In this document: piece after piece, positions 28,156 through 59,224 of the stretch
Layout: every line of letters starts with the position of its first letter
Position numbering within the stretch: position 1 is the stretch's first letter
Virus record (IMG/VR): IMGVR_UViG_3300035182_002389
Span: 96,001-160,000 of that record
DNA: 64,000 nucleotides
Source of the DNA: a virus
Lineage: Duplodnaviria > Caudoviricetes
Reading direction: 5' to 3' (one strand)
Program-made: the position numbers and the translations under genes
Notes under the pieces: model-generated
What the model was told of the DNA's origin: nothing
Databases searched by the model: none
Seen by the model: the letters and a program-made list of their open reading frames with translations, nothing else

Positions 28156-29124
28156 ATGGCCGAACATCTCATTTTCGACGGGCACAACCTTGCCGTGCGG
28201 TGCGCGCACGCCATCGAGGCGGCAGGGCTCACGAACGCGGACGGCGTGCCGACCGGCGAAGCGTTCGCCTTCCTCAAGGCCCTCGGCGGCTTCAAGACGC
28301 GCTTCCCACTCGCGAAGGTCACCGTCGTGTGGGACGGGTCGAGCCACAAGCGCAAGGCCGTCTTCGACGGGTACAAGGCCAGCCGCGGGATGCTCCGCAA
28401 GACCTTCCCCGTCGAGTACCTGAAGGGTCTTCTGCCCTTCCTTTCCGTTCGTCAGGCCATGAGCCCGACCGACGAGGCGGACGACGTCATCGGCGTCCTC
28501 GTGCGCGTTCGCTCCAGCGCAGAGCGAGATCGGGAACGCTCGCCTTCGGCGAGCTGGGAACGGGAACGGGAACGGGAAGAAGACCGCTTCACCATCGTCA
28601 CGACCGACTGCGATCTCCTTCAAACCGTCACGCCGAAGGTCCGCGTCCTCATGCCGCCAGCGGGCGCTGCAAAAGATCGCCGCGAGACCTTGTACGGCGA
28701 GATCGAGGTGCTTGCCGAGTACGGCGTGCCTGTCGGCCAGCTCCTCGACCTTCGCGCGCTCGCGGGAGACGTCTCCGACGAGATCCCCGGCGTGCCCGAG
28801 CTGGGGCCCAAGCGCGCCGCAAAACTCCTCACCTTCCACGGATCACTCGACGCCGTCTTCGAGGAGGCGCTGCGTGACAAGGCTCGCAAGCGCAAAGGCA
28901 TCCTCGCCTCGCCGATGACGGACCTTCAGCGCAAGAACCTGCGCGAGCACGAAGGAATCGTTCGACGCAATCTTGCGATCATGCGCCTCTCGGACGTCGA
29001 CGAGATCACGTACACCGAAGGCGCTTTCAAGGCTCTTCAAGCGGCCGTGCTTCTCCAGAAGCTCGACATCAAGGTCGACCCCATCCTCGACTTGTTCTTC
29101 CCGAAGCAGACCGCGTTCGCGTAG
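28156..29124 (+). CDS. 5'-3' exonuclease / flap endonuclease (Pol I N-terminal-like)
   Basis: IFDGHNL, VVWDG...RK...YKASR, EADDVIG, IVTTDCDLLQ, LAGDVSDEIPGVPELGPKRAAKLL (H3TH). Confidence 0.95.
   Translation: MAEHLIFDGHNLAVRCAHAIEAAGLTNADGVPTGEAFAFLKALGGFKTRFPLAKVTVVWDGSSHKRKAVFDGYKASRGMLRKTFPVEYLKGLLPFLSVRQAMSPTDEADDVIGVLVRVRSSAERDRERSPSASWEREREREEDRFTIVTTDCDLLQTVTPKVRVLMPPAGAAKDRRETLYGEIEVLAEYGVPVGQLLDLRALAGDVSDEIPGVPELGPKRAAKLLTFHGSLDAVFEEALRDKARKRKGILASPMTDLQRKNLREHEGIVRRNLAIMRLSDVDEITYTEGAFKALQAAVLLQKLDIKVDPILDLFFPKQTAFA
28522..28578 (+). repeat. family-2 element inserted in frame in the exonuclease
   Basis: GAGCGAGATCGGGAAC-GCTCGCCTTCGGCGAGC-T(GGGAAC)3GGGAA; encodes ERDRERSPSASWERERERE. 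Confidence 0.9.
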
Positions 29125-30657: not shown

Positions 30658-31758
30658 ATGCCGTACATCAAAGGCGCCTCCGAAGAGTCCGTCGCACAAA
30701 ATGTGGATTTTGCCCTTCGCGAAGGAAAAAGCCACGATCAGGCGATGGCCATCGCGCGCTCCTACGCGAACCGCGTGCTCAAGGCACGCCGCCACGTCTG
30801 GACCCAAGAGCGCGAGCGCATCTTCCAGGTCGGCGTTCGGATGGGCGTCGCGAAGTACCACGGCAAACGAGCGCGCCGCGACGCTCCGCCGAAGCATGTC
30901 CGCAAAGCTCGCGTCTTCGTTCGCCTCTCCTACCCCCTCGGCGACGGGACGCAGAAGCAGCAAGAGGCCGTCGCGCGAAAAGCCGACATGCGCATCTACG
31001 AAGCTGCCGGGGGCCGTCTCACGACCAAATCGGGCGGCGCGTATGGCCGCCTCGGGCATCGCTCGCACTCGTTCGAGTACGCGACCCCCGACAGCGCCCA
31101 GCGCGTGCTCCACGCCATCGAGAAGCTCAAGATCAAGGGCCTGAAGATCGGCATCGTCTCGATCGTATGGGACGAATCGGGCCGCGCGCAGTCGACCTCG
31201 CTGACCTCCTTGCCGGCCGCGAAGCCAGCCAAGAAGCCGGCCAAGAAGCCGGCGAAGGCCGCGAAGAAGCCGGCCAAGAAGAAGCCGGCGAAAGCCGCGA
31301 AGAAGAGGCCCGCGAAGGCCGCGAAGAAGCCTGCGAAGGCCGCGAAGAAGAAGCCCGCGAAGGCCGCGAAGAGGCCGGCGAAGGCTGCGAAGAAGCCGGT
31401 CAAGACCTCGACCAAGACCTCGACCAAGAGGACCTCCGCCAAGAAGGTCGTCCCGACCTTCGAGGTGTGGGGCTGGAAGGGCAACAAGGGTCACAAGCTC
31501 TCGACCCACACCCGCGAGACCAACGCCATCGAAGCGGCGAAAAAGATCAAGGGCTACGACAAGGTCCGAGTGCAAGTTCACATGGGGCGCGAAACCAAGA
31601 GCTTCACCGTGCAGGGGCCGCGCGGCGGCGTCGGCCGCGTCGGCGGCACGATGCCGAAGTCGCGCGGACCTGCGAAGAAGACGACCAAGAAGACGGCCAA
31701 GAAAGCGGCAAAGAAGTCTGCCAAGACCACGCGCCGGCAGAGCGTGCCGCCGTTCTGA
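30658..31758 (+). CDS. histone H1-like Lys/Ala/Pro-rich DNA-condensing protein
   Basis: About ten PAKAAKK/PAKK repeats and a basic C-terminal tail; TAGACT 6 nt before the ATG. Confidence 0.8.
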   Translation: MPYIKGASEESVAQNVDFALREGKSHDQAMAIARSYANRVLKARRHVWTQERERIFQVGVRMGVAKYHGKRARRDAPPKHVRKARVFVRLSYPLGDGTQKQQEAVARKADMRIYEAAGGRLTTKSGGAYGRLGHRSHSFEYATPDSAQRVLHAIEKLKIKGLKIGIVSIVWDESGRAQSTSLTSLPAAKPAKKPAKKPAKAAKKPAKKKPAKAAKKRPAKAAKKPAKAAKKKPAKAAKRPAKAAKKPVKTSTKTSTKRTSAKKVVPTFEVWGWKGNKGHKLSTHTRETNAIEAAKKIKGYDKVRVQVHMGRETKSFTVQGPRGGVGRVGGTMPKSRGPAKKTTKKTAKKAAKKSAKTTRRQSVPPF

Positions 31759-31761
31759 GCT

Positions 31762-32016
31762 TCACCCTCCCGCGCCCACGCGAAGCGTGAGGAACAAGTG
31801 AGCGCCTTCGGCAAAACCGTAGGCGCTCACGAGTTTTGTGGTGCACGCAATCGTCACTCCATTTTCGTGGCGCAGCTCCCAATCCTCGCGCGGGCGCGAG
31901 GCATTCTGGCTCATGGAAAGCGCCTCTTCGATGAGGCTGTCGAGCGGCACGGCCTCGTGAAATCCAAGCGCAACTTCCTGCCCGTTCACGACGAAGGTGA
32001 GCCTCATGCGGACCAT
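31762..32016 (-). CDS. ubiquitin-like (beta-grasp) protein, DUF2604-like, ending in di-glycine
   Basis: LTFVVNGQEV...PLDSLIEEALSMSQN..RP.EDWELR.ENG...K....GF..GAHLFLTLRVGAGG*; alternative start 32007. Confidence 0.75.
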   Translation of the reverse strand: MVRMRLTFVVNGQEVALGFHEAVPLDSLIEEALSMSQNASRPREDWELRHENGVTIACTTKLVSAYGFAEGAHLFLTLRVGAGG

Positions 32017-32205
32017 TTCTACCACGAAGGGGCCTCTGACTTCTGGCAAGCCACCGAGGCGGCTTTGCACAAGTACCGGCTTTTTCTCAGCAGAAAAACG
32101 CGATGTCGATTTTGGTTTCGAGCTTGTTGACGAACGAATCGTCGTGCGTCTCAATGGACTCCTGACCGGACACGTTCGTCCGAAACCATCAGGGAGTTCC
32201 TCTTC

Positions 32206-32721
32206 ATGGCCTTCGACCTGAGCTTCGGCTCTCTCGGCTCGGCTCGCGACAAGCTGGCGAGCTGGCACGACGAAAACAAGCTCGCCATCAGCCGCGCGAC
32301 CGCCACCGCCGAGATCGGCGCTTCCGCCTTCGGCTTCGGCTGGCTCCACGGCCGCTACCCGAAGATGGACGTGTTCGGCGTCGACCTCTCGCTGCTCGCC
32401 GGCGTCGGTCTCATCGGGCTCTCCTTCCTCGACAAGAAGGAAGAGGGGGAAGGCGGCGCGTACGGCCACCACCTCGCTTCGCTCGGCCAGGGCGCCCTCG
32501 CGGTGTACCTCGCCAAGCTCGGCGCGGATTGGGGCGACAGCATGAACCCCGACTCGCCGCACTACTGCGGGATGTACACGCCGAGCGCCACGGCGCCCGC
32601 GCAGTTCCAGCCCAAGGTCCCGCCGCCCGCCGCGGTCAAGGGCTACGACTACGCCCACACGGGCTTCAACGTCTCGACGGCCGACATCGGCCAGATGGCC
32701 CAGCGCCGTAACTGGGGCTGA
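32206..32721 (+). CDS. membrane protein (putative virion membrane/assembly protein)
   Basis: GGGAG SD; several Gly/Ala-rich hydrophobic helices; directly precedes the capsid candidate. Confidence 0.7.
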   Translation: MAFDLSFGSLGSARDKLASWHDENKLAISRATATAEIGASAFGFGWLHGRYPKMDVFGVDLSLLAGVGLIGLSFLDKKEEGEGGAYGHHLASLGQGALAVYLAKLGADWGDSMNPDSPHYCGMYTPSATAPAQFQPKVPPPAAVKGYDYAHTGFNVSTADIGQMAQRRNWG

Positions 32722-32821
32722 GACCGCTTCGAGGTCGCTCTCGGGCGACCAGTGATCGATGGGACGTCGGTGGTGGTGGGGAAGCTCGCCTCGTCCAAGG
32801 CAACGTGACAGGAGAATCCAA

Positions 32822-33385
32822 ATGAACGGTCTCATCCAGAAGTTCGGCGCGCAGAAGGCTTCGGCGGCGACGGGCGCGCCCGGCGAAGGCTGCAACGTCC
32901 CCGCGCAGATGCAGCAGGCGAATGCCGCCGCGATGTACCAGCTCCGCGTCAACGGGCTGACCTCGCCGGGCCTCGCCCCCAACACGACGGGCTGCTGCCC
33001 GCCCCCGGTCGTCCTCGACGCTTCGAGCCGCGACAGCAGCGGCGCGCAGCTCACGGTCGGCGCGAACGACGTGTTCAGCGTCACCGTGCAGCTCCAGGAG
33101 CCCTTCAAGGGCAACGACTTCGTCGTGGCTGCGCAGATCGCGCAGTACTTCGAGATCATGTCGATCAAGGTCGGCCGCGACGAGCAGCTCATCTCGGAAG
33201 CCGCGATCCCCGCCGAGGTCTTCTCGTCGGCCTCGCAGCGCCAGGTCGGCCTCGACATGCTCCCCTGCCCGACGTCGAAGCAAATCTTCGTCCAGGTGCG
33301 CAACGTCGACACGCAGGCCCGCTACTTCAAGGCCGCGTTCTTCGGCTCGTGCTTCGACTGCAACACGCCGCAGATCGGCGGCTGA
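32822..33385 (+). CDS. putative single jelly-roll capsid protein
   Basis: AGGAG SD; alternating beta-strand pattern (FSVTVQ, DFVV, YFEIMSIKVG, IPAEVF, QIFVQVRN, YFKAAFFG); strongly C/G-ending codons; fold is inferred. Confidence 0.5.
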   Translation: MNGLIQKFGAQKASAATGAPGEGCNVPAQMQQANAAAMYQLRVNGLTSPGLAPNTTGCCPPPVVLDASSRDSSGAQLTVGANDVFSVTVQLQEPFKGNDFVVAAQIAQYFEIMSIKVGRDEQLISEAAIPAEVFSSASQRQVGLDMLPCPTSKQIFVQVRNVDTQARYFKAAFFGSCFDCNTPQIGG

Positions 33386-33535
33386 GCAACCGCCTCGTGC
33401 GTGAGTGGGTCGCAAGGCCCGCTCCGCTGAGATGATGCGTAGACCCTGGTTGCGCTCGACGCTCGCGAGAGTTCGAGCGTACCCGGGGCCTTCGTGTATT
33501 TGCTGCGCGCATCGACCTTTTCGCAGGAGACTTCC

Positions 33536-34462
33536 ATGACCGAAGGCTACAATCCTTTCCCCGGCTTCTTCGTCGCCGACACGATCTGCTCGCTCCAGAA
33601 CGCCGACACGAGCGGCCTCGAAGACGGCTGCCTCGCGTACGTTCGCGCGAACCAGTCCTACTACGCGTACGGCGCGTCCTTCGCGCACGCGCCCGCACCG
33701 AACGGCACGACCGTGCTCTCGACCTTCAACGGCCCGGCGGCCGTTCAGGCCGATGGCAGCCCGTGCACCGGCGAGCAGTCGCACGCACACACGGCCGGCG
33801 GCCCCGGCCGCTGGATCCTGACGACCCTCGGATACGGCGGGTTCCAGGCGCCCTTCAAGGCACGCGCCGTGCAGTCCCTCGCCGTCGCCCACCTCAACGC
33901 CGCGAGCACGAGCGCCGATGGCGTAACGCTCCTCGAAGGTGACGTCGTCCTGCTCACCGCCCAGACCCCCGGGACCGATAACGGCCCCTACGTGGTCGGT
34001 CCGGTCGTCGGCCCCGCCGCTCCGCTCACCCGCCCGTTCTGGTGGAGCCCCGACACGGTCATCCCGTCCGGGACCGTCATCGAAGTCGGCGGCGAAGGCA
34101 CGCTCTTCAAGAACAGCTCGTGGAAGGTCACGGGCGCCTCGTTCGTCGTCGAGACGGGCGGCCCCGGCCTGTTCCCGCAGAACCAGCGCTACACGGGCGC
34201 TCTCGGAGCCGGCGATCTGTTCCTCGACGGAAGCGGAGCCTCGGGCCACCACGACATCGGCCTCTACATGACCGCGGACGCCTCCGTCCAGGTCACGCGC
34301 AGGGCGTTCTCGGGCGCTCTGCTGACGGTCGAGTACGAGGTCCTCGTTCAGATGCCGGGTCAGCGCGGCGCCGCGGCGCTCCGCATCCAGGCCCAGCAGG
34401 CGGACGGGTCGCTCAGCAACTACGACGTCAGCACCCTCTCCGTCCTCGTCAACAACTGGTGA
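33536..34462 (+). CDS. EGYNPFPG paralog 1 (with long beta-rich C-terminal extension)
   Basis: MTEGYNPFPG...TICSLQNADTSGLEDGCLAYV...GGPGRWI. Confidence 0.85.
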   Translation: MTEGYNPFPGFFVADTICSLQNADTSGLEDGCLAYVRANQSYYAYGASFAHAPAPNGTTVLSTFNGPAAVQADGSPCTGEQSHAHTAGGPGRWILTTLGYGGFQAPFKARAVQSLAVAHLNAASTSADGVTLLEGDVVLLTAQTPGTDNGPYVVGPVVGPAAPLTRPFWWSPDTVIPSGTVIEVGGEGTLFKNSSWKVTGASFVVETGGPGLFPQNQRYTGALGAGDLFLDGSGASGHHDIGLYMTADASVQVTRRAFSGALLTVEYEVLVQMPGQRGAAALRIQAQQADGSLSNYDVSTLSVLVNNW

Positions 34463-34544
34463 TCGACGGAGGCGATTGCCGAAGGTGATCGCCTACGCGG
34501 CGGAGAACAAGGGTTCGTGTTCGGACCCTCGTTTTCCCCGCTGC

Positions 34545-34559
34545 GACTTGTCGCAAGCC
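34545..34559. promoter_or_regulatory. palindromic operator-like site
   Basis: GACTTGTCGCAAGCC with TAGAAT downstream. Confidence 0.65.
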
Positions 34560-34635
34560 GTGCTTCTTCATTTGCCCCAAGCGGAGTAGAATCTGCTCTA
34601 CTGAGGGCGCAACCCTTTCGACGGAGATCAGCACC

Positions 34636-34983
34636 ATGCCCAACGAAGGCTTCAATCCGTTTCCCGGCTTCGTGCACGCAGACAGCACCTGCGCGCTCCA
34701 GAACGTCAACACCGACGGCCTCGACATCGGCTGCCTCGCGAAGACGCCCCAGATCCAGCAGCGCGCTCCCGGCACGCTGGACGGCTGCACCTACTGGCGC
34801 CTCGACGAGACAGACCCGCCGCTCAGCGTCGACGGCAACGACGTGCTCGCGACCTACAACAGCGGCATGCCGCTCGACGGCGCGGCCCACCCGTGCACCG
34901 TCGTCGAGCCGAGCGCGCACAGCCTCCGCGGCACGCAGCGCTGGATTCGCCTCAACATCTACGACGTCGCGTCCGACCTCTAG
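34636..34983 (+). CDS. EGFNPFPG paralog 2
   Basis: MPNEGFNPFPG...TCALQNVNTDGLDIGCLA...TQRWI. Confidence 0.85.
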   Translation: MPNEGFNPFPGFVHADSTCALQNVNTDGLDIGCLAKTPQIQQRAPGTLDGCTYWRLDETDPPLSVDGNDVLATYNSGMPLDGAAHPCTVVEPSAHSLRGTQRWIRLNIYDVASDL

Positions 34984-35075
34984 TCCACATCCGTCAGCGC
35001 CGACGGACCCGTCGCGTCGGCGCTGGCGGACACGCTCTGCAACATCTTCATCCGGTCTTCCTCTCGGAGCGCGCC

Positions 35076-35441
35076 ATGAACGAAGGTTACAATCCGTTTC
35101 CGGGGCTCGTGTACGCGCCGGACGTTTGCACGCTCCAGAACTTCAACACCGACGGGATGATCAGCGGCTGCCTCGCGTCCACCCCCGATCCCCGAAAGAG
35201 GCTCGGGCCTTTCGGGCCGACCCTCCACAGTTGGTTCTACCGCTTCTGGTACCCGACGACCGAAGATGCGTTCATCATGCCCGAGGTAAACGGGTGGAAC
35301 GTTTTTTCGACGTACAACGGACCGGAAGGCCAGAACGACGGCGACCCGTGCCCGGTGCTGCCGAAAGGCATCAACGCGCACACGGCCTCGGGACCTGCGC
35401 GGTTCATCCGACTCAACATCTGGGACGTCTTCGGCTACTGA
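35076..35441 (+). CDS. EGYNPFPG paralog 3
   Basis: MNEGYNPFPG...VCTLQNFNTDGMISGCLA...GPARFI. Confidence 0.85.
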   Translation: MNEGYNPFPGLVYAPDVCTLQNFNTDGMISGCLASTPDPRKRLGPFGPTLHSWFYRFWYPTTEDAFIMPEVNGWNVFSTYNGPEGQNDGDPCPVLPKGINAHTASGPARFIRLNIWDVFGY

Positions 35442-35474
35442 TCGTTCAGAGCCTGCGCAGCCGAAGAAAGCACC

Positions 35475-36254
35475 ATGAGCGAAGGATACAACCCGAATCC
35501 CGGCTTCTTGTCCGTCGACACGACGTGCGAGTTGCAGGCAAAAAGCATCGACGGGCTCGATGAGGGCAGCGTCGCGTTTGTGCGCGAAGACGTCTTCGTC
35601 CCTTGGATCGACGCAAGCCCTGACAGCGGCCCCTACCACTACTACCGCCTCGCGTTCTTCACGTTCCCCGAGTTCCCGTTCTTCAAGGTCGGGCCCATCC
35701 CAAGGTCGTTCAGTCCGAAGGCGGCCGGCGCGAAGACGGCCGGCGCGAAGACCGCTCCTGCGGCTCCTTTCGTTCGGTATTCCGACTACCAGCGAGCCAT
35801 GGAGAAGGCAGCCTTCGACGTCTACAGCGCCGCTGTCGACGCCTTCGAGAAGGTCAACCCGGAAGCCGCAACCAAGATCCGTGCAAAGATGACGGCCAGC
35901 GCTGCTCTCGCTGCGACCAAGCCTTCCGCGAAGACTCCGAAGAACCCGCTGACCGCAAAGCGCGCCGCGGCCCAAGCGCCTGTCACCCCGCCCCTCGGCG
36001 CGACGGGTCCGAAGCAGCTTCTCACCAACCCCAAGCAGAGTCTCATCGATCCGCCTGCGGACCCGAGCCTCTGGACCTATGCGCCGTGGCCGGACGGATC
36101 CAGCATCCTCGCAACCTGTGCGAGCGGGCCCGCGCTTCAGCAAGACGGCGAAACCCTCTGCGGAAACGGCGTCGGCGAAGCTTCGCTGCAACGCTACGCC
36201 GGCACGAGTCGCTGGCTTCTGATCAGCGTCCAAGACGCCATCCTGTTCGACTAG
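35475..36254 (+). CDS. EGYNPNPG paralog 4 (with basic Ala/Lys/Pro insertion)
   Basis: MSEGYNPNPG...TCELQAKSIDGLDEGSVAFV...GTSRWL. Confidence 0.85.
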   Translation: MSEGYNPNPGFLSVDTTCELQAKSIDGLDEGSVAFVREDVFVPWIDASPDSGPYHYYRLAFFTFPEFPFFKVGPIPRSFSPKAAGAKTAGAKTAPAAPFVRYSDYQRAMEKAAFDVYSAAVDAFEKVNPEAATKIRAKMTASAALAATKPSAKTPKNPLTAKRAAAQAPVTPPLGATGPKQLLTNPKQSLIDPPADPSLWTYAPWPDGSSILATCASGPALQQDGETLCGNGVGEASLQRYAGTSRWLLISVQDAILFD

Positions 36255-36309
36255 GACCGCGTCGTTCGACGACGCTCACGATTCACGTTCAACCATCGGA
36301 GAAGAGAAC

Positions 36310-36705
36310 ATGCCGAACGAAGGCTTCAACCCGTTTCCCGGGTTCATCAACGCTGAGACGACCTGCGACCTCCAGGCGGCCAACACCGACGGTCTGCAAG
36401 AGGGCTGCCTCGCCTTCGTGCGCACGCCGATCATCTTCGAGAACGACCCGAACCTCGGACCGTTCCACTACTACCGCTACACCACCATCGACACCGTGCT
36501 GACCCCCGCGCTGCCCGTCGACGGCGTGCTCGTGCTCGCGGCCTACAACAGTCAGCCGGCTCGCCAGCAGCCCTCGCTGAGCCCCTACGTCCCGGGCAGC
36601 GTCGGCGCTCTCTGCGCCCCCATCCCCGATCAGGTCGACGCGCACCAGCCCGGCCCGGCCCGCTGGATCCTGGTCGACATCAGCGACTTCACCGTCGCGC
36701 CCTGA
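36310..36705 (+). CDS. EGFNPFPG paralog 5
   Basis: MPNEGFNPFPG...TCDLQAANTDGLQEGCLAFV...GPARWI. Confidence 0.85.
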   Translation: MPNEGFNPFPGFINAETTCDLQAANTDGLQEGCLAFVRTPIIFENDPNLGPFHYYRYTTIDTVLTPALPVDGVLVLAAYNSQPARQQPSLSPYVPGSVGALCAPIPDQVDAHQPGPARWILVDISDFTVAP

Positions 36706-36758
36706 TCGCCTTCGGCGACCCGCCCCTTCCACGACTCACCCGTCACGGAGAAGAAGAC

Positions 36759-37109
36759 ATGACCGAAGGCTACAATCCGTTTCCCGGCATCATCGTCGTG
36801 GAAACCACCTGCGAGCTTCAGAACACCGACACGAGCGGTCTCGATGACGGCTGCCTCGCGTACGTGAAGACCAAGGGCGCCGGCCTCGCCGTCGACTTCC
36901 ACTACTTCCGCCTCTACGACTACCGCGTCGGCGCACCGCCCCCGAACGGCACGACGATCCTGTCGACCTACAACGGTCCGCCGTCCGTTCAGCAGGGGAT
37001 CAACTGGAACACCGCCGGCGCCGTCTGCGCGCAGCAGGGCGACGCGCACCACGCGGGCGGCACGGTCCGCTGGATCCTGACCGACATCATCGACAACGCC
37101 AACGCCTGA
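36759..37109 (+). CDS. EGYNPFPG paralog 6
   Basis: MTEGYNPFPG...TCELQNTDTSGLDDGCLAYV...GTVRWI. Confidence 0.85.
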   Translation: MTEGYNPFPGIIVVETTCELQNTDTSGLDDGCLAYVKTKGAGLAVDFHYFRLYDYRVGAPPPNGTTILSTYNGPPSVQQGINWNTAGAVCAQQGDAHHAGGTVRWILTDIIDNANA

Positions 37110-37160
37110 CGTTCGGCAACGCGCTGCCTGCTTGATACCGACGCGCCTTCGGAGAAGAAC

Positions 37161-37514
37161 ATGAGCGAAGGGTACAATCCGTTTCCCGGTATCATCCAGG
37201 CAGCGAGCCGTTGCGAGCTTCAGAACACGGTCACCGACGGACTCGACGAAGGATGCCTCGCGCGCATCACGCCTGACGACGACGATCGGAACGGCTGGTT
37301 CTACTACCGCTACTACGCCCTTCGGGACGGAGAGGCTTCTCCGCAAATCGACGGGTATTTCGTGCTGTCGACGTACAACGGGCCCGAAGCCAAGTTCCGA
37401 GAGAACGGCGATTTCGCCTGGCGCACCGTTTCGTGCCCCGACCAAGGCCCCGCACACAGCGACCTCGGGCCGGGCCGCTGGATCCTGACGAACATTCAGG
37501 ATTTGGACTGGTGA
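37161..37514 (+). CDS. EGYNPFPG paralog 7
   Basis: MSEGYNPFPG...RCELQNTVTDGLDEGCLARI...GPGRWI. Confidence 0.85.
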   Translation: MSEGYNPFPGIIQAASRCELQNTVTDGLDEGCLARITPDDDDRNGWFYYRYYALRDGEASPQIDGYFVLSTYNGPEAKFRENGDFAWRTVSCPDQGPAHSDLGPGRWILTNIQDLDW

Positions 37515-37517
37515 ACG

Positions 37518-37538
37518 CGGGCGGTCTCGGGCCGCCCG
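37518..37538 (+). terminator. GC-rich hairpin after the paralog array
   Basis: CGGGCGG-TCTCGGG-CCGCCCG; no U-tract. Confidence 0.35.
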
Positions 37539-37544
37539 TCCACT

Positions 37545-37700
37545 GACGAGGGATTCTTCAAGGGGCGTCCGAGGGGTGTTTCTCCCGTCCACCCCCATCA
37601 CCCGAGACGCTCCGCGTTCGGGCAAATCGGCGGGCCTTCCGGTCCCCCGCTCTCTTGCCCGCGCGCGAAACCTCGGCCGTCCCTTGAAGGACCCCTCGCC
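37545..37700. ncRNA. candidate structured non-coding element
   Basis: 23-bp imperfect outer stem (37545-37567 / 37678-37700), continued by CCGAGG/CCTCGG and TTTC/GAAA, enclosing two hairpins. Confidence 0.45.
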
Positions 37701-37733
37701 GATCTTCCACCGCATCCGCAGGACCCCCACTCG

Positions 37734-38144
37734 ATGTTCTTCCCGCGCGTGATCCTGACGCTCTTCAACGGCGAGTACGATCGGGACCTCGGCGAGCGCG
37801 CCGTCTTGCACCTGCTCGACGCGCTCGTCGCCATCGACGAGGACTACCTCCGTCGCCACCCCGAGATCCCGAAGCTATACGCCTCGGGCGTGCGCTACGA
37901 ACGGCAGAAAGGCGACCAGGAAGACTGGCACGACATCCCGACCACCATCTCCATCGGCAAGAGCGACTGCAAGGTCCTCGCCGCGTGGAGGTGCGCCGAG
38001 CTGCGTCTGCAAGGCATCGCCGCCGTGCCGACGCTCTTGCGTCAGCCGACCAAGACCGGCCTGTACCTCTACCACATCCAGGTCCGCTACCCGAACGGGT
38101 ACATCGAAGACCCGAGCGTCATCCTCGGCATGGCGCCTCCCTGA
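37734..38144 (+). CDS. transglutaminase-like cysteine protein
   Basis: SDCKVLAAWRCAELR...YHIQV...IEDPS: Cys-His-Asp triad order. Confidence 0.7.
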   Translation: MFFPRVILTLFNGEYDRDLGERAVLHLLDALVAIDEDYLRRHPEIPKLYASGVRYERQKGDQEDWHDIPTTISIGKSDCKVLAAWRCAELRLQGIAAVPTLLRQPTKTGLYLYHIQVRYPNGYIEDPSVILGMAPP

Positions 38145-38161
38145 ACTCCCACACCGGCGCC

Positions 38162-38176
38162 GACTTACGGTAAGCT
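38162..38176. promoter_or_regulatory. palindromic operator/-10 site
   Basis: GACTTACGGTAAGCT; near-identical at 41135 and 56230. Confidence 0.6.
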
Positions 38177-38186
38177 GAGGACCGCC

Positions 38187-39848
38187 ATGAATCCCCTCCT
38201 GCTCCTGCTCGTCGCCGGTGGTGCTGCCGCGGTCTACGCCTTCACGAAGAAGAAGGCCACGCCCACGAGTCTGCCCGTCGACACGACGCCCATCGATCTC
38301 ACGTTGGGCAAGCAGGGTACGGCTCTCACGATCGATTCCCACCGGCCACCTCCGCCTCCGCCTCCGCCTCCGCCTCCGCCTCCGCCTCCGCCTCCGCCTC
38401 CGCCTCCGCCTCCGCCTCCGCCGGCCATCCTCGCGCCGCAGGCGCTCGACGACGCGCAGAAGCAGAGCCTCTTCAAGCGTCTGCCGGACATGGTCATGGT
38501 CACCGACCCTGCGAGCGGACCGCTGGCGCACAGGGTCAGCCTGCGCGACAACGCCAACAAGAGCCGAATGGGTGGCGAGCTGTTTCCGGCCGTCTTCAGT
38601 GACACGCTCGCGACCATCGTCACGCGCACGGACGATCCCGGCGGCATGGAGGTCGAGTTCGTCGATATGCCGACCGCGGCCGTGCTTGTCGCGCCCGGCA
38701 GCCGATGGTTCCTCTTCCTCAAGCCGGGCGAGGCCAAGACGCTGACCGCGCTGCCGGGCATGCCTTCGCTCGCGAAGCCTCCGACCCCGGAAGAGATCGC
38801 AGCCGCCAAAGCAGCGGCCGACAAGGAGGCCTCGGACAAGGCCGCGGCCGACAAGATCCTTGCGGACAAGGCTGCCGAGGACGCCGCTCAAGCCGCTCTG
38901 CTCGCTGCCGAGGCCGACAAGATGGCCGCCGAGAAGGCCGCCGCCGACGCCGCTGCTGCCGCCAAGGACGCCGCTGGCAAAGCAGCCGCTGCCGAGGCCG
39001 CCAAGCGCGCGTCCATGAGCTACGCGGACGCGACGCAGGACCTTCACATCAGCTCCTTCATCGTCGATGGGCTGCCCGCCGTGCCGTGGAGCGATTGGAC
39101 GAAACAGATCGCCGATCAGCTCCAGGCCGCCGGCTACACGACGGCCGCCAACGTGCTGTACGCAAAGTCTCCCGAGGCGGCTCAGAAAATCGCAGACGAG
39201 ATTGCCGCGAAAGCTGCCATGGGCGTCGGCGAAGCGGGCGACGCGCTCGGCTACCCCATCACCATCATCTTCGATCTGCTCTCCGGCAAGGACCCGGCGC
39301 AAGCCCTCGAAATCTCCAACAAGATGCGGGATGCAGGCTACACGGCCGCGGCCGACACGCTGTACGCGACGACGCCCGAATACGCCACGGCGCAGCGCGC
39401 CAAGATGTACATCATCGACGTGGGCGCCAACGAATATGCGGTCTTCCGAGGCACGAACATCGGCGCCATGCTCGCTCTCGCCGATCAGCTCGCGACCAAG
39501 GGATACGTCGAAGCTTCGGAGCAGCTTTTCGCACGGGCCGACAGTCTCGGATGGTTCCCGAAGAGCAACGACCATCCCCTGCGCATGACGGTCGACGACA
39601 TGACGGGCCGGAGCGCGCCGGCAGGACTCTTCGACGGGTCCTACGCGAGCAAGCAGCTCTCGATTGCAGGCGTCAACCTGCTCAGCCTCATCGACATCGT
39701 TGGCGCCCTGCGCAACCATCAGGACGCGGCCATCTCTTCCGGGAACAAGTACGCCGGGATGTTCGAGAACGCTGGGTATCACGTCGCGGCAAGGCAGCTT
39801 CTCGACCTGACCGCATCGCTCGTGCATCTGTTCGCTGCCGGCGCGTAG
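38187..39848 (+). CDS. signal-anchored virion membrane protein with poly-Pro stalk and LxxxGYxxAAxxL repeats
   Basis: MNPLLLLLVAGGAAAVYAFTKKK; 26 consecutive Pro; AAAK coiled coil; four GY helical motifs. Confidence 0.85.
   Translation: MNPLLLLLVAGGAAAVYAFTKKKATPTSLPVDTTPIDLTLGKQGTALTIDSHRPPPPPPPPPPPPPPPPPPPPPPPPPPAILAPQALDDAQKQSLFKRLPDMVMVTDPASGPLAHRVSLRDNANKSRMGGELFPAVFSDTLATIVTRTDDPGGMEVEFVDMPTAAVLVAPGSRWFLFLKPGEAKTLTALPGMPSLAKPPTPEEIAAAKAAADKEASDKAAADKILADKAAEDAAQAALLAAEADKMAAEKAAADAAAAAKDAAGKAAAAEAAKRASMSYADATQDLHISSFIVDGLPAVPWSDWTKQIADQLQAAGYTTAANVLYAKSPEAAQKIADEIAAKAAMGVGEAGDALGYPITIIFDLLSGKDPAQALEISNKMRDAGYTAAADTLYATTPEYATAQRAKMYIIDVGANEYAVFRGTNIGAMLALADQLATKGYVEASEQLFARADSLGWFPKSNDHPLRMTVDDMTGRSAPAGLFDGSYASKQLSIAGVNLLSLIDIVGALRNHQDAAISSGNKYAGMFENAGYHVAARQLLDLTASLVHLFAAGA
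38349..38420 (+). repeat. (CCTCCG)12 microsatellite encoding poly-proline
   Basis: Perfect hexamer repeat. Confidence 0.95.
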
Positions 39849-39884: not shown

Positions 39885-41042
39885 ATGAACCCCCTGCTCC
39901 TCGTTCTGATCGCTGGCGGCGCTGCTGCGGCCTACTTCCTCACGAAGAAGTCGACGCCCGTCGCCGACACGACCGGGCAGCCGGCGCAGCCCGATCAGCC
40001 TGTCACGCCCCCGGGGCCTGCTGTCAAGCCGAAGCCGGTCGCCGTGCTTCCGCAGGCGCTCGACGCGGGGCAGCGCAGCGCGCTCTACAAGTCCCTTCCG
40101 ACGATGGATCTCGTGGACGGTCCGACCAAGACGCCGTCGAACGCGTCCGGGACCATCGCCGTCTCGAAGATCAGCCTCAAGAAGAACGCCATCTCCAGCG
40201 AGGTGCGCACCGACGCGTTCCCCATCATCGCTTCGGCGAACCTCGGCGGCCCCGACGGCAAGGCGCACAAGACGACCATCCTCGCGACCATGACCAACGA
40301 ACCTGGCGGGATGGAGATCGCCGCAGTCGACGGCGCCGACCTCGCGCGCTCGATGCTGCTGCCGGGCAGCCGCTGGTTCCTCTTCATGGAACCGGGGCAG
40401 GCCACGACGCTCTCGAAGGAAGCGGGCGCGCCTGCCATCCCCGCGAACCTTCCGCCCATCGTCATGCCCGACACCGGCGCCCCGAAGCAGGCGCTCACAA
40501 ATCCGCTCACGAGCAGCAGTCACATCTCGAAGGACAACATCGTCTTCAAACCGATCTTCCTCATCCACGGACTGATCGGCGACAAGGCCAACACTCCGCT
40601 CGCTGACATCCCGGGCCCCACGGGCATCAACGCGCGCGCTGCCGCGACCCGCTCCGACTCGGCCTCGATGGTCACGTGGGCCGACCAGCTCATCTCCGAG
40701 GGCTACACCAAGGCCGCCCAGGCGCTCTTCGATCAAGCCTACGCGATCGGATGGCGGGCATCGCCGACCGATCACAAGGAGCGAATGATTCTCGGCGACA
40801 TGCTCGACGCGAGTGCGCCGAACTACGACGCGGCCTACATCGCAGACGGCGTCGTCTTCAGCAATGCGGGCGACGGATCGTTCAACCTCGACGATCTTCG
40901 CGCGCTCGTCTACGCGGCGAAGACCGTGCCTCTGCCGACGCAGGTCGGCCCGCTCAACGACGCTGCGGCGAGCTTCCTCGCTGCTGGCTACACGGGCCTC
41001 GCGGGCGAGCTGAGCAACCTCGCCAAGAGCATCGTGGGCTGA
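39885..41042 (+). CDS. signal-anchored membrane protein, paralog of 38187
   Basis: MNPLLLVLIAGGAAAAYFLTKK; PQALD...PGGME...PGSRWFLF shared with 38187. Confidence 0.85.
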   Translation: MNPLLLVLIAGGAAAAYFLTKKSTPVADTTGQPAQPDQPVTPPGPAVKPKPVAVLPQALDAGQRSALYKSLPTMDLVDGPTKTPSNASGTIAVSKISLKKNAISSEVRTDAFPIIASANLGGPDGKAHKTTILATMTNEPGGMEIAAVDGADLARSMLLPGSRWFLFMEPGQATTLSKEAGAPAIPANLPPIVMPDTGAPKQALTNPLTSSSHISKDNIVFKPIFLIHGLIGDKANTPLADIPGPTGINARAAATRSDSASMVTWADQLISEGYTKAAQALFDQAYAIGWRASPTDHKERMILGDMLDASAPNYDAAYIADGVVFSNAGDGSFNLDDLRALVYAAKTVPLPTQVGPLNDAAASFLAAGYTGLAGELSNLAKSIVG

Positions 41043-42720: not shown

Positions 42721-43710
42721 ATGGGCCCTCTTCCTATCATTCTCGGCGGCGGCGCTGTGCTCCTTGCGCTCGCGTTCGGCAAGAAGTCCTCGGTTGCGTC
42801 GCTGACCAGCAACCCTCAGCCGACCCCCTACACGCCGCCGAACATCCTCCCGCCGGGGCCCACGCCGCCGAAGCCAGTCCCTCCCCAGGATTTGCCCATG
42901 GGCACTTCCGGCGGCGCGAGCAAGGCCGAGATCACCTGCTTGCAGACGCAGCTCAGCATGCTCCGGTCGCCCGACGGCGCCGGATACAACACGGGCGGCA
43001 TCGACGGCGTCTGGACGAGCGGAACGTCCTCCGCGCTCGCGAAGTTCCAGAAAGATGCCGGCCTGCCGGTCACCGGAAGCATCGACGCGGCGACCCGATC
43101 GGCCGAAGCCTTCGCCATGTGCTTCTCGGCCAGCGCGCCGCAGCCTTCGAGCGGCCCCGACATGACCGGCGGCGCCACCGCGTACCAAATCCGCTGCCTC
43201 CAAAGCGCTCTGAACAACCGCTACAACGATCAGAACGTCAAGGAAGACGGTCTCTGGTCAAGCGCGCTCGGCACCGTCGTCTCTCGCGCGCAAACCGACG
43301 CGGGGCAGGCCGTCACCGGCCGCATCACCCCCGAGCTGCTCGCGCAAGCCGGATGCTCTGCTGCCGCGCCGACCGTGTATCCGTCGACCTTCGGCGACAC
43401 CATCGCGTGCGACGTCAACGGCAACATGCCTGACGCGAAGAAGACGGCGGACCTCAAGGCCGCCATCAACGCGTCGACCAGCGAAGCCGACCTCAACGAG
43501 TTCGCGAACTTCTGCCTCTCGCTCGACAAGCCCTGCACGGGTCTGCACGACTACGCGCTCGCCCGCATCGTCGGGATGCGCGAGAACAAGACCACCGAGC
43601 AAGTCCTGCAAGAGCAGCACGACGCCGCCGTCGCTGCCGCGCAACAAGCGGGAGGCGTCGTCAAGGACGCTGCTGGCAACGTCATCGACACCTTCAAGAA
43701 CATGTTCTGA
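42721..43710 (+). CDS. signal-anchored protein with peptidoglycan-binding domains
   Basis: IDGVWTSGTSSALAKFQKDAGLPVTGSID and EDGLW...AQTDAGQAVTGRI. Confidence 0.85.
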   Translation: MGPLPIILGGGAVLLALAFGKKSSVASLTSNPQPTPYTPPNILPPGPTPPKPVPPQDLPMGTSGGASKAEITCLQTQLSMLRSPDGAGYNTGGIDGVWTSGTSSALAKFQKDAGLPVTGSIDAATRSAEAFAMCFSASAPQPSSGPDMTGGATAYQIRCLQSALNNRYNDQNVKEDGLWSSALGTVVSRAQTDAGQAVTGRITPELLAQAGCSAAAPTVYPSTFGDTIACDVNGNMPDAKKTADLKAAINASTSEADLNEFANFCLSLDKPCTGLHDYALARIVGMRENKTTEQVLQEQHDAAVAAAQQAGGVVKDAAGNVIDTFKNMF

Positions 43711-58615: not shown

Positions 58616-59224
58616 ATGTCGCACAGCCCCGTCCGCAACCAAATCTCCGCTGCCGATCCTGCTGCCCTCACCGCGTACGTGGGCAAGTTCCAAGCAGGCG
58701 ATACGGCCTATGTCGCGTCTCCGTCCGCCGAGTTCATCTTCAGCGCTACCAACCCATACCCTGCCGGCGCTCTCAACCTCGCCTACGTCCTCGCCAGCGG
58801 CGGCGGCTTCTGGCTCCGAAACATGCCGAACGCTGCCACGTTCCTGTGCGACGCGATCTTGCCAGCGTCTCTCGCCGTGCCGGCATTGACGTACCTGACG
58901 CCCGGATATGGAGCGACCACGGTCGATCCGCTTCCGTCTTCTGTTTCCCTCTTCGGCGTGATGCAGGCAACCAAGAGGACCGTCACGTCTCTCAGGGTTA
59001 GTCACGACTCCACCGCGGCAGAAGTCCCCACTATCCAGTACACCATCACGCTCAATGGCGCTCCCATCGTCACAACGGCGCTGTCTCTCGACGCCGGGAT
59101 GGATGCTGGCGAAATCTACTTCGGACCGCTTCCCGTCGTTCCTGGCGACGTCATCGGCGTTACGGCGCTTCCGACCGGCGTCGTCGTCAACACTCCGAGG
59201 TCCATCGTTGCCACGGTGAACTGA
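58616..59224 (+). CDS. beta-rich structural protein; N-terminus distantly resembles the EGYNPFPG domain
   Basis: AGDTAYV...YVLASGGGFWLR followed by a jelly-roll-like strand pattern. Confidence 0.6.
   Translation: MSHSPVRNQISAADPAALTAYVGKFQAGDTAYVASPSAEFIFSATNPYPAGALNLAYVLASGGGFWLRNMPNAATFLCDAILPASLAVPALTYLTPGYGATTVDPLPSSVSLFGVMQATKRTVTSLRVSHDSTAAEVPTIQYTITLNGAPIVTTALSLDAGMDAGEIYFGPLPVVPGDVIGVTALPTGVVVNTPRSIVATVN

What the first reader, a model, noticed from the sequence alone, without database searches (positions are those of the whole stretch)
33536..37514. Seven tandem paralogs of an unnamed ~115-aa EG(Y/F)NPFPG domain right after the capsid gene
Seen: all start M(x)EG(Y/F)NP(F/N)PG and continue with (T/V/R/I)CxLQ..xxxG(L/M)xxGCLA, an aromatic strand, VL(S/A)(T/A)(Y/F)NG, a third Cys, AH and G(P/T)xRWI. 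The conserved core alternates with hypervariable loops. Paralog 1 has a ~200-aa beta-rich extension and paralog 4 a basic 100-aa insertion. The conserved C, C, C, H set could form a disulfide or metal site, and paralog 4 lacks the second Cys and the His. A distant relative may be 58616-59224. Inferred: interchangeable vertex or spike subunits sharing a capsid-docking N-terminal peptide and giving combinatorial receptor or antigenic variation. The C-terminal GRW pattern recalls tailspike head-binding modules.
Basis: partly seen in the sequence, partly recalled or inferred. Interest (0 to 1): 0.75.

Follow-up and report, generated by a model that had tools for sequence, protein, structure and literature searches.

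The report
Tandem array of spike-base domain genes
An uncultured 202-kb bacterial virus carries seven neighbouring genes (ten in the whole genome) for a new version of the small three-fold "base" domain that sits at the start of phage tailspikes. Six of the seven have no spike and longer variable loops, so they are probably short surface knobs held on the virus particle by a shared ten-residue peptide.

Summary
Seven same-strand genes (33536-37514), each with its own GGAG ribosome site, encode paralogs that start M-x-EG(Y/F)NP(F/N)PG. The genome (202,518 bp, microbial mat and sediment) has ten copies; the other three are the N-termini of 376-, 529- and 545-residue spike-like proteins.

No Pfam, PHROG or PDB sequence match exists. 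In two fold searches the 15-16 best matches (Z 4.3-7.2) are all one domain, the small trimeric dome just before the beta-helix of tailspike depolymerases. A homotrimer prediction passed (ipSAE 0.90, best control 0.00). About ten distant metagenomic relatives carry the domain only at the N-terminus of ~500-residue beta-helix-like proteins.

The dome-only genes are confined to this virus clade. Their loops are longer (53-70 against 35-45 residues). They have orthologues in relatives (dN/dS 0.3-0.9). Gene content varies: one relative lacks paralogs 3 and 4.

My reading is a multi-spike system with one shared docking module, including six spike-less "stub" trimers. Attachment to the virion, and to the upstream jelly-roll candidate, is untested. 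The suggested relative at 58616-59224 is not related. The scan noted this same stretch before in another window (e1-5321716).

The parts
33536..34462 (+). Paralog 1 (P0001, 308 aa): N-terminal docking peptide and dome (residues 1-~105), then a 200-aa distal module
   Evidence: Residues 113-206 hit phrog_2647 'head decoration' (E 9e-11) and other virion, tail-fibre and uncharacterised PHROGs. Its loop lengths are of the spike-fused type.
34636..34983 (+). Paralog 2 (P0002, 115 aa): dome only
   Evidence: Orthologues are P0011 (ENA contig) and L013:3-218. It is sister to paralog 3 in the tree (96/96).
35076..35441 (+). Paralog 3 (P0003, 121 aa): dome only; absent from relative L013
   Evidence: Orthologue P0012. 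Window 35050-36235 has no counterpart in L013.
35475..36254 (+). Paralog 4 (P0004, 259 aa): dome split by a basic Ala/Pro/Lys-rich insertion of about 145 aa; lacks the second Cys and the His; absent from relative L013
   Evidence: Orthologue P0013 keeps the insertion. It is sister to paralog 5 (94/94).
36310..36705 (+). Paralog 5 (P0005, 131 aa): dome only, with the longest loops
   Evidence: Orthologues in L013 (90% aa, dN/dS 0.48) and L011 (P0015, 61%, dN/dS 0.30).
36759..37109 (+). Paralog 6 (P0006, 116 aa): dome only; the copy that was modelled
   Evidence: Monomer model, pLDDT 65. Fold matches. Homotrimer prediction. Orthologues in L013 (86%, dN/dS 0.90, with a 5-residue indel in loop 1) and L011 (59%, dN/dS 0.38).
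37161..37514 (+). Paralog 7 (P0007, 117 aa): dome only
32822..33385 (+). Context: 187-aa protein directly upstream (P0029). It is a possible but untested docking partner.
Evidence: No Pfam or PHROG hit. Member of a widespread unnamed viral protein family. Its fold was not tested here.
37734..38144 (+). Context: 136-aa protein directly downstream.
Evidence: No Pfam or PHROG hit. Not tested here.

Best explanation
The array encodes seven members of a ten-member family. Each member has a ~100-residue module of two parts. The first part is an almost invariant ten-residue N-terminal peptide, M-x-EG(Y/F)NPFPG. The second is a small sheet-plus-helix domain that assembles as a trimeric dome. This is the same kind of domain that sits immediately before the beta-helix in phage tailspike depolymerases.

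In the wider family the module is always the extreme N-terminus of a ~500-residue spike. In this virus lineage it was copied in tandem. Paralog 1 keeps a distal module. Six copies have none, and one of these carries a long basic insertion. The spike-less copies have lengthened their surface loops, above all the hairpin after the GCLA block.

I infer that all ten proteins plug into the same kind of socket on the virion through the shared peptide and dome. On this view the six dome-only trimers are short 'stub spikes'. Their enlarged, fast-changing loops would be the exposed surface, for host contact or for masking. Different relatives carry different sets of them.

Shown: paralogy, architecture, loop expansion, protein-level conservation, and turnover between relatives. 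Predicted only: the fold class and the trimer. Inferred: virion attachment, the common socket, and the role of the loops.
For: 1. Paralogy and number. There are ten copies at E 1e-21 to 1e-50. The peptide motif never occurs without the dome.

2. Fold. The monomer model (pLDDT 65, pTM 0.64) has a short helix and four to five strands. In a search of 48,161 PDB representatives made without Foldseek, the top 15 matches are all the pre-beta-helix domain of tailspike depolymerases (Z 4.3-6.9, rmsd 1.9-4.8 A, 57-73 residues). Examples are Fri1 gp49 204-272, CBA120 TSP2 266-330, Kp7 gp52 14-82, Depo32 202-268 and K1 lyase 10-66. The next unrelated row has Z 3.9. The second look at Foldseek's list gives the same picture: K2-2 TSP 15-85 at Z 7.2, then a fall to 2.8. 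Among BFVD matches that carry a name, nearly all are tail fibre or tailspike proteins.

3. What that domain is. K2-2 residues 15-85 are described as a putative particle-binding domain, a four-stranded sheet plus a two-turn helix, three of which form a dome (PMC10936425). In Depo32 it is the neck helix plus connection domain, which trimerises (PMC10581125).

4. Trimer. Three copies of P0006 scored ipSAE 0.90 against a best of 3 controls of 0.00. That mark was reached by 20 of 30 proteins solved as pairs of one chain and by 1 of 23 solved as single chains. These counts hold only roughly, because my own alignment and three copies were used. The runs agree in at least 77% of contacts, and the partner pLDDT is at least 85. 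Trimeric tailspike domes have been solved, so the pass shows likeness and is not proof.

5. Architecture of relatives. All distant relatives (P0017-P0026, E 3e-27 to 2e-4) carry the domain at residues ~5-105 of 377-618-aa proteins. A model of P0016, which is 93% identical to the genome's own 545-aa protein, best matches K1 capsule lyase, phage K64-1 S2-4, K2-2 TSP and beta-helix glycosidases (Foldseek E 8e-6, prob 0.99, but TM only ~0.2). P0014 ends in a K1-lyase_C-like stretch (E 1.9e-5, just under the cut-off). P0008 ends in phrog_20787 'virion structural protein'.

6. Shared peptide. Residues 1-10 have 82% mean pairwise identity against 37-39% elsewhere. Synonymous codon identity there (0.63) equals that of the rest of the domain (0.64), so selection acts on the protein. 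The peptide has pLDDT below 50 in the monomer model.

7. Dome-only copies look functional. Each has its own ribosome site. Orthologue pairs exist in relatives and group by paralog in the tree. dN/dS is 0.30-0.38 at larger distance. The loops total 53-70 residues against 35-45 in all 13 fused copies. The A34-R51 segment is 15-21 residues in dome-only copies and exactly 9 in fused ones.

8. Turnover and modularity. A relative that is 81-91% identical in DNA lacks window 35050-36235, which holds paralogs 3 and 4. In L014 a P0014-type dome heads a P0008-type distal part.

9. Precedent. Multi-spike phages attach secondary spikes by a short conserved N-terminal peptide, and truncated copies that keep the peptide are known (PMC6872550).
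Against: - No direct evidence places any of these proteins in a virion.
- All fold matches have Z below 8. The tool warns that such values can reflect a common arrangement. The monomer model is only moderately confident.
- The predicted trimer interface is not better conserved than the rest of the domain (0.37 against 0.39, permutation p 0.58). Conservation therefore does not independently support the trimer.
- The full-length spike model has low TM to its matches.
- No socket protein has been identified. I did not search for a T4 gp10-like branching domain.
- No Terminase_6N, HK97 capsid or FtsK family hit exists in the genome, so it is unknown what kind of particle this is.
- dN/dS of the array is not clearly higher than that of the neighbouring spike genes (0.3-0.5). 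The loop comparison is not phylogenetically independent.
Confidence: 0.55

Rival explanations
1. Capsid decoration or cement trimers. The ~115-residue trimers bind the capsid lattice itself at three-fold or quasi-three-fold positions through the N-terminal peptide, as lambda gpD does with its flexible N-terminus (from my own knowledge). The seven paralogs would fill different quasi-equivalent sites of a large shell.
For: The size and the predicted trimer fit. The N-terminus is disordered and conserved. Paralog 1's extension hits phrog_2647 'head decoration'.
Against: The domain's only fold matches are tailspike domes, not decoration proteins. The same module heads beta-helix spikes, which are not lattice cement. 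Loss of paralogs 3 and 4 in a close relative is hard to square with fixed lattice positions. PHROG function labels for that extension are mixed: head decoration, tail fibre, virion structural protein and unknown function.
Confidence: 0.15
2. Remnants or landing pads. The dome-only genes are truncated spike genes kept mainly as DNA. They would be decaying leftovers, or homologous acceptor sites at which new distal modules are captured by recombination, as proposed for the 61-69-aa truncated secondary spikes of some Klebsiella phages.
For: Truncated spikes that keep the docking peptide are known and are read this way (PMC6872550). Module exchange between spike genes is seen in L014. Array content differs between relatives. 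dN/dS is 0.5-0.9 in the closest comparisons.
Against: All seven frames are intact, with their own ribosome sites and GC3 of 0.77-0.94. The duplications predate the split from relatives, and each paralog has kept its orthologue. dN/dS falls to 0.30-0.38 at larger distance. Every dome-only copy ends cleanly after the dome. All dome-only copies have gained, not lost, loop residues. Conservation of the peptide is at protein level.
Confidence: 0.12
3. Non-structural competitors or regulators. The free domes are not stable virion parts. They would act in the infected cell by occupying the spike socket, or by mixing into spike trimers, to set how many or which long spikes are mounted. Alternatively they would serve some unrelated intracellular role.
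For: They share the module that the long spikes would use to dock. They are acidic, soluble and lack a signal peptide or membrane anchor. Nothing shows they are in the particle.
Against: Six diverging copies with elaborated variable loops are more than a competitor would need. They sit in a same-strand block with the jelly-roll candidate and membrane proteins, not with early genes.
Confidence: 0.1

Closest known systems
N-terminal dome domain of tailspike depolymerases: 'particle-binding domain' of Klebsiella phage K2-2 TSP residues 15-85; 'neck helix + connection domain' of Depo32 residues 186-271; the same domain in Fri1 gp49, CBA120 TSP2/TSP4, Kp7 gp52 and K1 lyase
   Same: Small four-stranded sheet plus a short helix. 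Predicted trimer. Placed directly before a beta-helix-like spike body in the long family members.
   Different: There is no sequence similarity detectable by Pfam, PHROG or a PDB profile search. Here the domain sits at the very N-terminus behind a ten-residue invariant peptide. Six of the seven array members have no spike body at all and carry much longer loops.
Anchor-branch multi-spike systems with a conserved N-terminal docking peptide (K1-5/K1E/SP6, KP32, KP34, Menlow and PhiK64-1 groups; Latka et al. 2019, PMC6872550)
   Same: Several spike proteins in one genome share a short N-terminal peptide in front of otherwise different bodies. Truncated members that keep the peptide occur. Modules are exchanged between genes.
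   Different: No branching or adapter partner has been found here. The truncated members are not single 61-69-aa stubs. They are six full, diverging, tandemly duplicated domes conserved across relatives. The virus has no recognisable tail or head genes in the three family scans I ran.
Trimeric vertex fibres docked on a pentameric jelly-roll penton by a flexible N-terminal tail (adenovirus fibre FNPVYPY motif on penton base; PRD1 P5 on P31). Recalled from my own knowledge, not tested.
   Same: A conserved aromatic and proline-rich N-terminal peptide precedes a trimer.
   Different: The resemblance of EG(Y/F)NPFPG to FNPVYPY is from memory only. The jelly-roll fold and any binding were not tested here. 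The dome fold is of the tailspike type, not a fibre shaft or knob.

Membership tests
Tailspike pre-beta-helix dome domain (K2-2 TSP 15-85 type) | [quoted passage not shown] | tested here: met
   The model has H17-21 and strands 12-14, 33-39, 45-54, 67-69 and 103-108. The top 15-16 structural matches are all this domain, at Z 4.3-7.2, with a gap to unrelated rows. Model confidence is moderate and Z is below 8.
Tailspike pre-beta-helix dome domain (K2-2 TSP 15-85 type) | Three copies form a dome-like trimer | tested here: met
   This is a prediction only. ipSAE was 0.90 against a best control of 0.00. The mark was reached by 20 of 30 solved one-chain pairs and by 1 of 23 single chains. Runs agree in at least 77% of contacts and pLDDT is at least 85. 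The pass may reflect likeness to solved tailspike trimers.
Tailspike pre-beta-helix dome domain (K2-2 TSP 15-85 type) | Followed in the same chain by a right-handed beta-helix receptor-binding body | tested here: not met
   Met for the long relatives (P0016 model; P0017-P0025). Paralogs 2, 3, 5, 6 and 7 end after the dome, and paralog 4 has only an insertion. Paralog 1 has a different 200-aa module.
Tailspike pre-beta-helix dome domain (K2-2 TSP 15-85 type) | Sequence membership in a described family (Pfam, PHROG, PDB chains) | tested here: not met
   No Pfam or PHROG hit for the domain at E<=1. No PDB chain at E<=10 with the 22-sequence profile.
Secondary spikes of anchor-branch receptor-binding systems (conserved docking peptide) | A short N-terminal peptide shared by several spike proteins of one genome | tested here: met
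   Ten proteins share M-x-EG(Y/F)NPFPG at 82% pairwise identity against 37-39% for the rest. Conservation is at protein level.
Secondary spikes of anchor-branch receptor-binding systems (conserved docking peptide) | A primary spike or adapter with a T4 gp10-like branching domain that receives the peptide | not tested
   I made no search for such a domain. Neighbouring large proteins have no Pfam or PHROG hits.
Secondary spikes of anchor-branch receptor-binding systems (conserved docking peptide) | Physical attachment to the tail or virion | not testable with these tools
   The virus is uncultured, and no particle data exist.
Penton-fibre vertex (adenovirus / PRD1 type) | The N-terminal tail of a trimeric fibre binds a pentameric jelly-roll penton | not tested
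The single complex job went to the homotrimer.
Trimeric capsid decoration proteins (lambda gpD / Dec type) | Fold and lattice partner of a known decoration protein | tested here: inconclusive
   No decoration protein stands among the listed fold matches. An unlisted family is not excluded. PF05065 (HK97 capsid) has no match in the genome.

The most novel reading that the evidence does not exclude
The dome-only proteins are a new class of minimal virion surface protein. A tailspike base domain has been freed from its spike and turned into a receptor-binding or shielding knob by growing hypervariable hairpin loops. It has been multiplied in tandem so that one particle, or different relatives, can mount a changing mixture of knobs and long spikes on one socket, possibly as mixed trimers. 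If the particle is indeed tailless and the socket is the neighbouring jelly-roll protein, this would join tailspike modules to a non-tailed virion architecture.
Probability: 0.3. Interest if true: 0.7.

Novelty: new variant of a known kind. Interest (0 to 1): 0.55.

Why it matters
Modular spikes with a shared docking peptide let phages widen and switch host range, and they are the basis of current spike-swapping engineering. Here the docking module itself has become a multigene family with no sequence relatives in curated libraries. Most of its members have dropped the spike and diversified the base instead.

If these stubs sit on the particle, a tailspike base can evolve into a binding or masking unit in its own right. 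They would also give a handle, namely the ten-residue peptide and its unknown socket, for working out the particle architecture of a 200-kb virus group whose head, tail and packaging genes cannot yet be recognised.

Tried and rejected
- Pfam and PHROG scans of all seven paralogs found nothing for the domain.
- A PDB sequence profile search found nothing. PDB phmmer with paralog 1's extension gave only chance-level rows.
- Phage GenBank collection: no DNA or protein match.
- IMG/VR scans with the family profile, the long-spike profile and the upstream protein found no relative. Records of the own genome are left out by design.
- The GTDB genome scan found no relative.
- One metagenome scan failed because the alignment was too diverse. 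It was repeated with closer sequences.
- The ESM Atlas feature search for P0006 gave no usable hit. For paralog 1's extension it gave only sub-threshold leads.
- 58616-59224 as a distant relative is rejected.
- The idea that the conserved blocks are the trimer interface is rejected as a statistical claim: 0.37 against 0.39, p 0.58.
- Gene conversion as the cause of the invariant peptide is rejected.
- Paralog 4's insertion is not one of the genome's repeat elements. It has no second copy in the genome.
- The promoter and terminator scan of 31700-38300 was at or below chance.
- Sequencing runs: no RNA holder is listed. Laying contigs of four runs (microbial mat and sediment; two may be the source) showed the same array without informative variants. 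The other pieces laid at 33534-33642 are consistent with paralogous copies elsewhere in the genome.
- ENA and JGI contigs that carry distant relatives gave gene maps but no DNA.
- No fold match to decoration proteins, fibre knobs or jelly rolls appeared in the lists. That is no evidence of absence.

Full report
**What is there**

The window is bases 96001-160000 of a 202,518-bp virus record. It is 65% G+C, and CheckV estimates 94% completeness. Between 33536 and 37514, seven + strand genes follow one another with gaps of 33-173 bp. Each has high third-position G+C (0.77-0.94) and its own GGAG-type ribosome site.

Their products (308, 115, 121, 259, 131, 116 and 117 aa) align over a core of about 100 residues. 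All seven share E3, G4, N6, P7, P9, G10, C18, L20, Q21, G27, G31, A34 and R92/104.

Paralog 1 has a 200-aa extension. Paralog 4 has an insertion of about 145 aa that is rich in Ala, Pro and Lys, has pI 10.0 and has no second copy in the genome. It also lacks the second Cys and the His.

**The family is larger than reported**

A profile of the copies finds ten places in the genome (E 1e-21 to 1e-50). The other three are the N-termini of proteins of 376, 529 and 545 residues, at 84564-83434(-), 86220-84631(-) and 181066-182703(+). The peptide motif never occurs without the domain. The ORF at 58616-59224, suggested as a distant relative, is not one: hhalign probability is 0.3% and there is no profile hit at E<=10.

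**What the domain is**

No Pfam, PHROG or PDB sequence search recognises it. An AlphaFold model of paralog 6, built from 12 family sequences, is moderately confident (pLDDT 65, pTM 0.64). It shows a short helix and four to five strands, and residues 1-8 are disordered.

Foldseek against the PDB gave only weak E-values, but nearly all of the leading rows were tailspikes. VIA-align, run both on that list and independently on 48,161 PDB representatives, put one domain in the top 15-16 places. This is the small domain immediately before the beta-helix of tailspike depolymerases. Examples are K2-2 TSP 15-85 (Z 7.2, rmsd 3.1 A, 68 residues), Fri1 gp49 204-272 (Z 6.9), CBA120 TSP2 266-330, Kp7 gp52 14-82, Depo32 202-268 and K1 lyase 10-66. 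Unrelated rows begin at Z 3.9 and 2.8. Among BFVD matches that carry a name, nearly all are tail fibre or spike proteins.

The K2-2 paper describes residues 15-85 as a putative particle-binding domain. It is a four-stranded sheet plus a two-turn helix, and three copies form a dome (PMC10936425). The Depo32 paper calls it the neck helix and connection domain, which trimerises (PMC10581125). All Z values are below 8, which the tool flags as middling. The argument rests on the exclusiveness of the matches and on the architecture described next.

**Architecture in relatives**

An exhaustive profile search of 1.84 billion representatives found only 23 proteins. Apart from the genome's own copies and close relatives, about ten distant ones (P0017-P0026) carry the domain at residues ~5-105 of 377-618-residue proteins. 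In most of these, the domain is followed by a W(Y/F)IDxVxGxDxNxGT...P(L/V)(Q/K)T(F/V)RE stretch.

I modelled P0016, which is 93% identical to the genome's own 545-aa protein. The model (pLDDT 64) is almost all beta. Its best Foldseek matches are the phage K1 capsule lyase, K64-1 depolymerase S2-4, K2-2 TSP and beta-helix glycosidases (E 8e-6, probability 0.99), although TM is only about 0.2.

The 529-aa protein ends in a K1-lyase_C-like stretch (E 1.9e-5, just under Pfam's cut-off). The 376-aa protein ends in a PHROG 'virion structural protein' motif. Paralog 1's extension hits 'head decoration', 'virion structural', 'tail fibre' and uncharacterised PHROGs.

The module is therefore the N-terminal end of spike-like virion proteins. 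The 545-aa type, which is always next to a DUF1360 membrane-protein gene, is the widely conserved form.

**Trimer**

Three copies of paralog 6 scored ipSAE 0.90 against a best of three controls of 0.00. That mark was reached by 20 of 30 proteins solved as pairs of one chain and by 1 of 23 solved as single chains. The counts hold only roughly, because I used my own alignment and three copies. The runs agree in at least 77% of contacts, and partner pLDDT is at least 85. Trimeric tailspike domes are in the PDB, so the pass shows likeness to them and does not prove assembly.

I then asked whether the predicted interface is the conserved part. It is not: pairwise identity is 0.37 at the interface and 0.39 elsewhere (permutation p 0.58). 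Conservation gives no independent support for the trimer.

**The shared peptide**

Residues 1-10 are by far the most conserved part, at 82% pairwise identity. Where two copies have the same residue, they use the same codon as often in the peptide (0.63) as in the rest of the domain (0.64). The peptide is therefore held by selection on the protein, not by recent gene conversion.

A short, conserved N-terminal peptide that is disordered in isolation and shared by otherwise different spikes is how secondary spikes dock in K1-5/SP6-, KP32-, KP34-, Menlow- and PhiK64-1-type phages (PMC6872550). I infer the same role here. The socket is unknown.

**Why the dome-only genes look functional**

- They occur only in this virus clade.
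- In the tree the array members group together, though weakly. Neighbours 2+3 (96/96) and 4+5 (94/94) are sisters, as tandem duplication predicts. Each paralog pairs with its orthologue from a relative, so the duplications are older than those splits.
- dN/dS against a distant relative is 0.30 and 0.38. Against a close one it is 0.48, 0.76 and 0.90, on few changes that include a five-residue indel in loop 1. Neighbouring long spikes give 0.3-0.5. The array is constrained but fast-evolving, like the spikes.
- Every dome-only copy has longer loops. The A34-R51 hairpin is 15-21 residues, against exactly 9 in all 13 fused copies. The four loops total 53-70 residues against 35-45. This comparison is not phylogenetically independent.

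**Turnover and shuffling**

A relative from another metagenome (L013, 81-91% DNA identity) runs from the end of paralog 2 straight into paralog 5. Window 35050-36235, which holds paralogs 3 and 4, has no counterpart there. An ENA contig keeps 2-3-4. A more distant relative has another copy before 5-6. In L014 a dome nearly identical to that of the 529-aa protein heads the body of the 376-aa type. The module therefore moves between spike genes.

**Context**

- The gene upstream (32822-33385) has no family hit. It belongs to a widespread group of unnamed viral proteins of 175-212 aa. I did not test this.
- The gene downstream (37734-38144) is read by another note as a small Cys peptidase. I found no family hit for it.
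- Scans for Terminase_6N, HK97 capsid and FtsK families found nothing in the genome. This agrees with earlier notes that the particle type is unknown.
- The virus is present in microbial-mat and sediment runs.

**Reading**

My best-supported explanation is a multi-spike system built on one docking module, peptide plus trimeric dome. Four members are long and six are stub members whose enlarged variable loops are the likely exposed surface. I give this about 0.55.

The rivals are lattice decoration trimers (0.15), remnants or recombination landing pads (0.12) and non-structural competitors (0.10). The CCCH metal-site idea is weakened. C18 and C90 are invariant in 22 sequences and C32 nearly so. 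The His is absent from all distant relatives, from paralog 4 and from one close orthologue of paralog 5. A disulfide remains possible but is untested.

**Novelty**

The kind is known: a modular spike N-terminus with a docking peptide. What is new is a sequence family unknown to curated libraries, and a conserved, tandemly expanded set of spike-less domes with grown loops, in a virus of unrecognised particle type.

Noticed in passing
L014:4009-7288 (metagenome contig Ga0315287_10018595), compared with G000 83434-86220: In this relative the second spike gene has an N-terminal dome almost identical to that of the 529-aa protein, but the body of the 376-aa type. The two ~450-aa genes that separate the Gly-rich 905-aa gene from the spikes in G000 are absent.
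   Followed up: partly
L010:4589-5011 and L010:5067-6704 (G000 180588-182703): A DUF1360 membrane-protein gene (E 3.8e-9) sits directly before the 545-aa spike. The same pairing is seen on contigs of distant relatives P0018 and P0019, with a NUDIX gene nearby in P0019's contig. On P0021's contigs the DUF1360 gene lies just after the spike gene instead. This is a possible membrane anchor or partner of that spike.
   Followed up: partly
L009:1012-1962 (G000 82011-82961, - strand): A 316-aa protein with a weak thioredoxin/glutaredoxin-like C-terminal stretch (phrog_22 E 1e-4; Pfam Glutaredoxin E 0.007) lies next to the two long spike genes. It is of interest because the dome has two invariant cysteines.
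   Followed up: no
window 38187-39848: A 553-aa protein has an N-terminal hydrophobic segment followed by an uninterrupted run of about 28 prolines. The next gene (39885-41042) starts with a similar hydrophobic segment. Neither has a family hit.
   Followed up: no
window 30658-31758: A 366-aa protein has long PAKKAAKK repeats like histone H1. Its first 43 residues match phrog_2423 (unknown function, E 6e-9).
   Followed up: no
window 28156-29124 and 42721-43710: A 5'-3' exonuclease (PF02739 and PF01367) lies upstream of the block. A protein with PG_binding_1 repeats and endolysin-type PHROG hits lies downstream.
   Followed up: no
whole genome G000: Searches of the whole genome with Pfam Terminase_6N, Phage_capsid (HK97) and FtsK_SpoIIIE found no match at E<=0.01, while the control genomes responded.
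   Followed up: partly
window 33536-37514, first codons of each paralog: The codons of the invariant peptide often use AAT and TTT (AATCCGTTTCC in five of ten copies) in a genome with about 90% G+C at third positions. This may reflect a start-region preference for weak mRNA structure.
   Followed up: no
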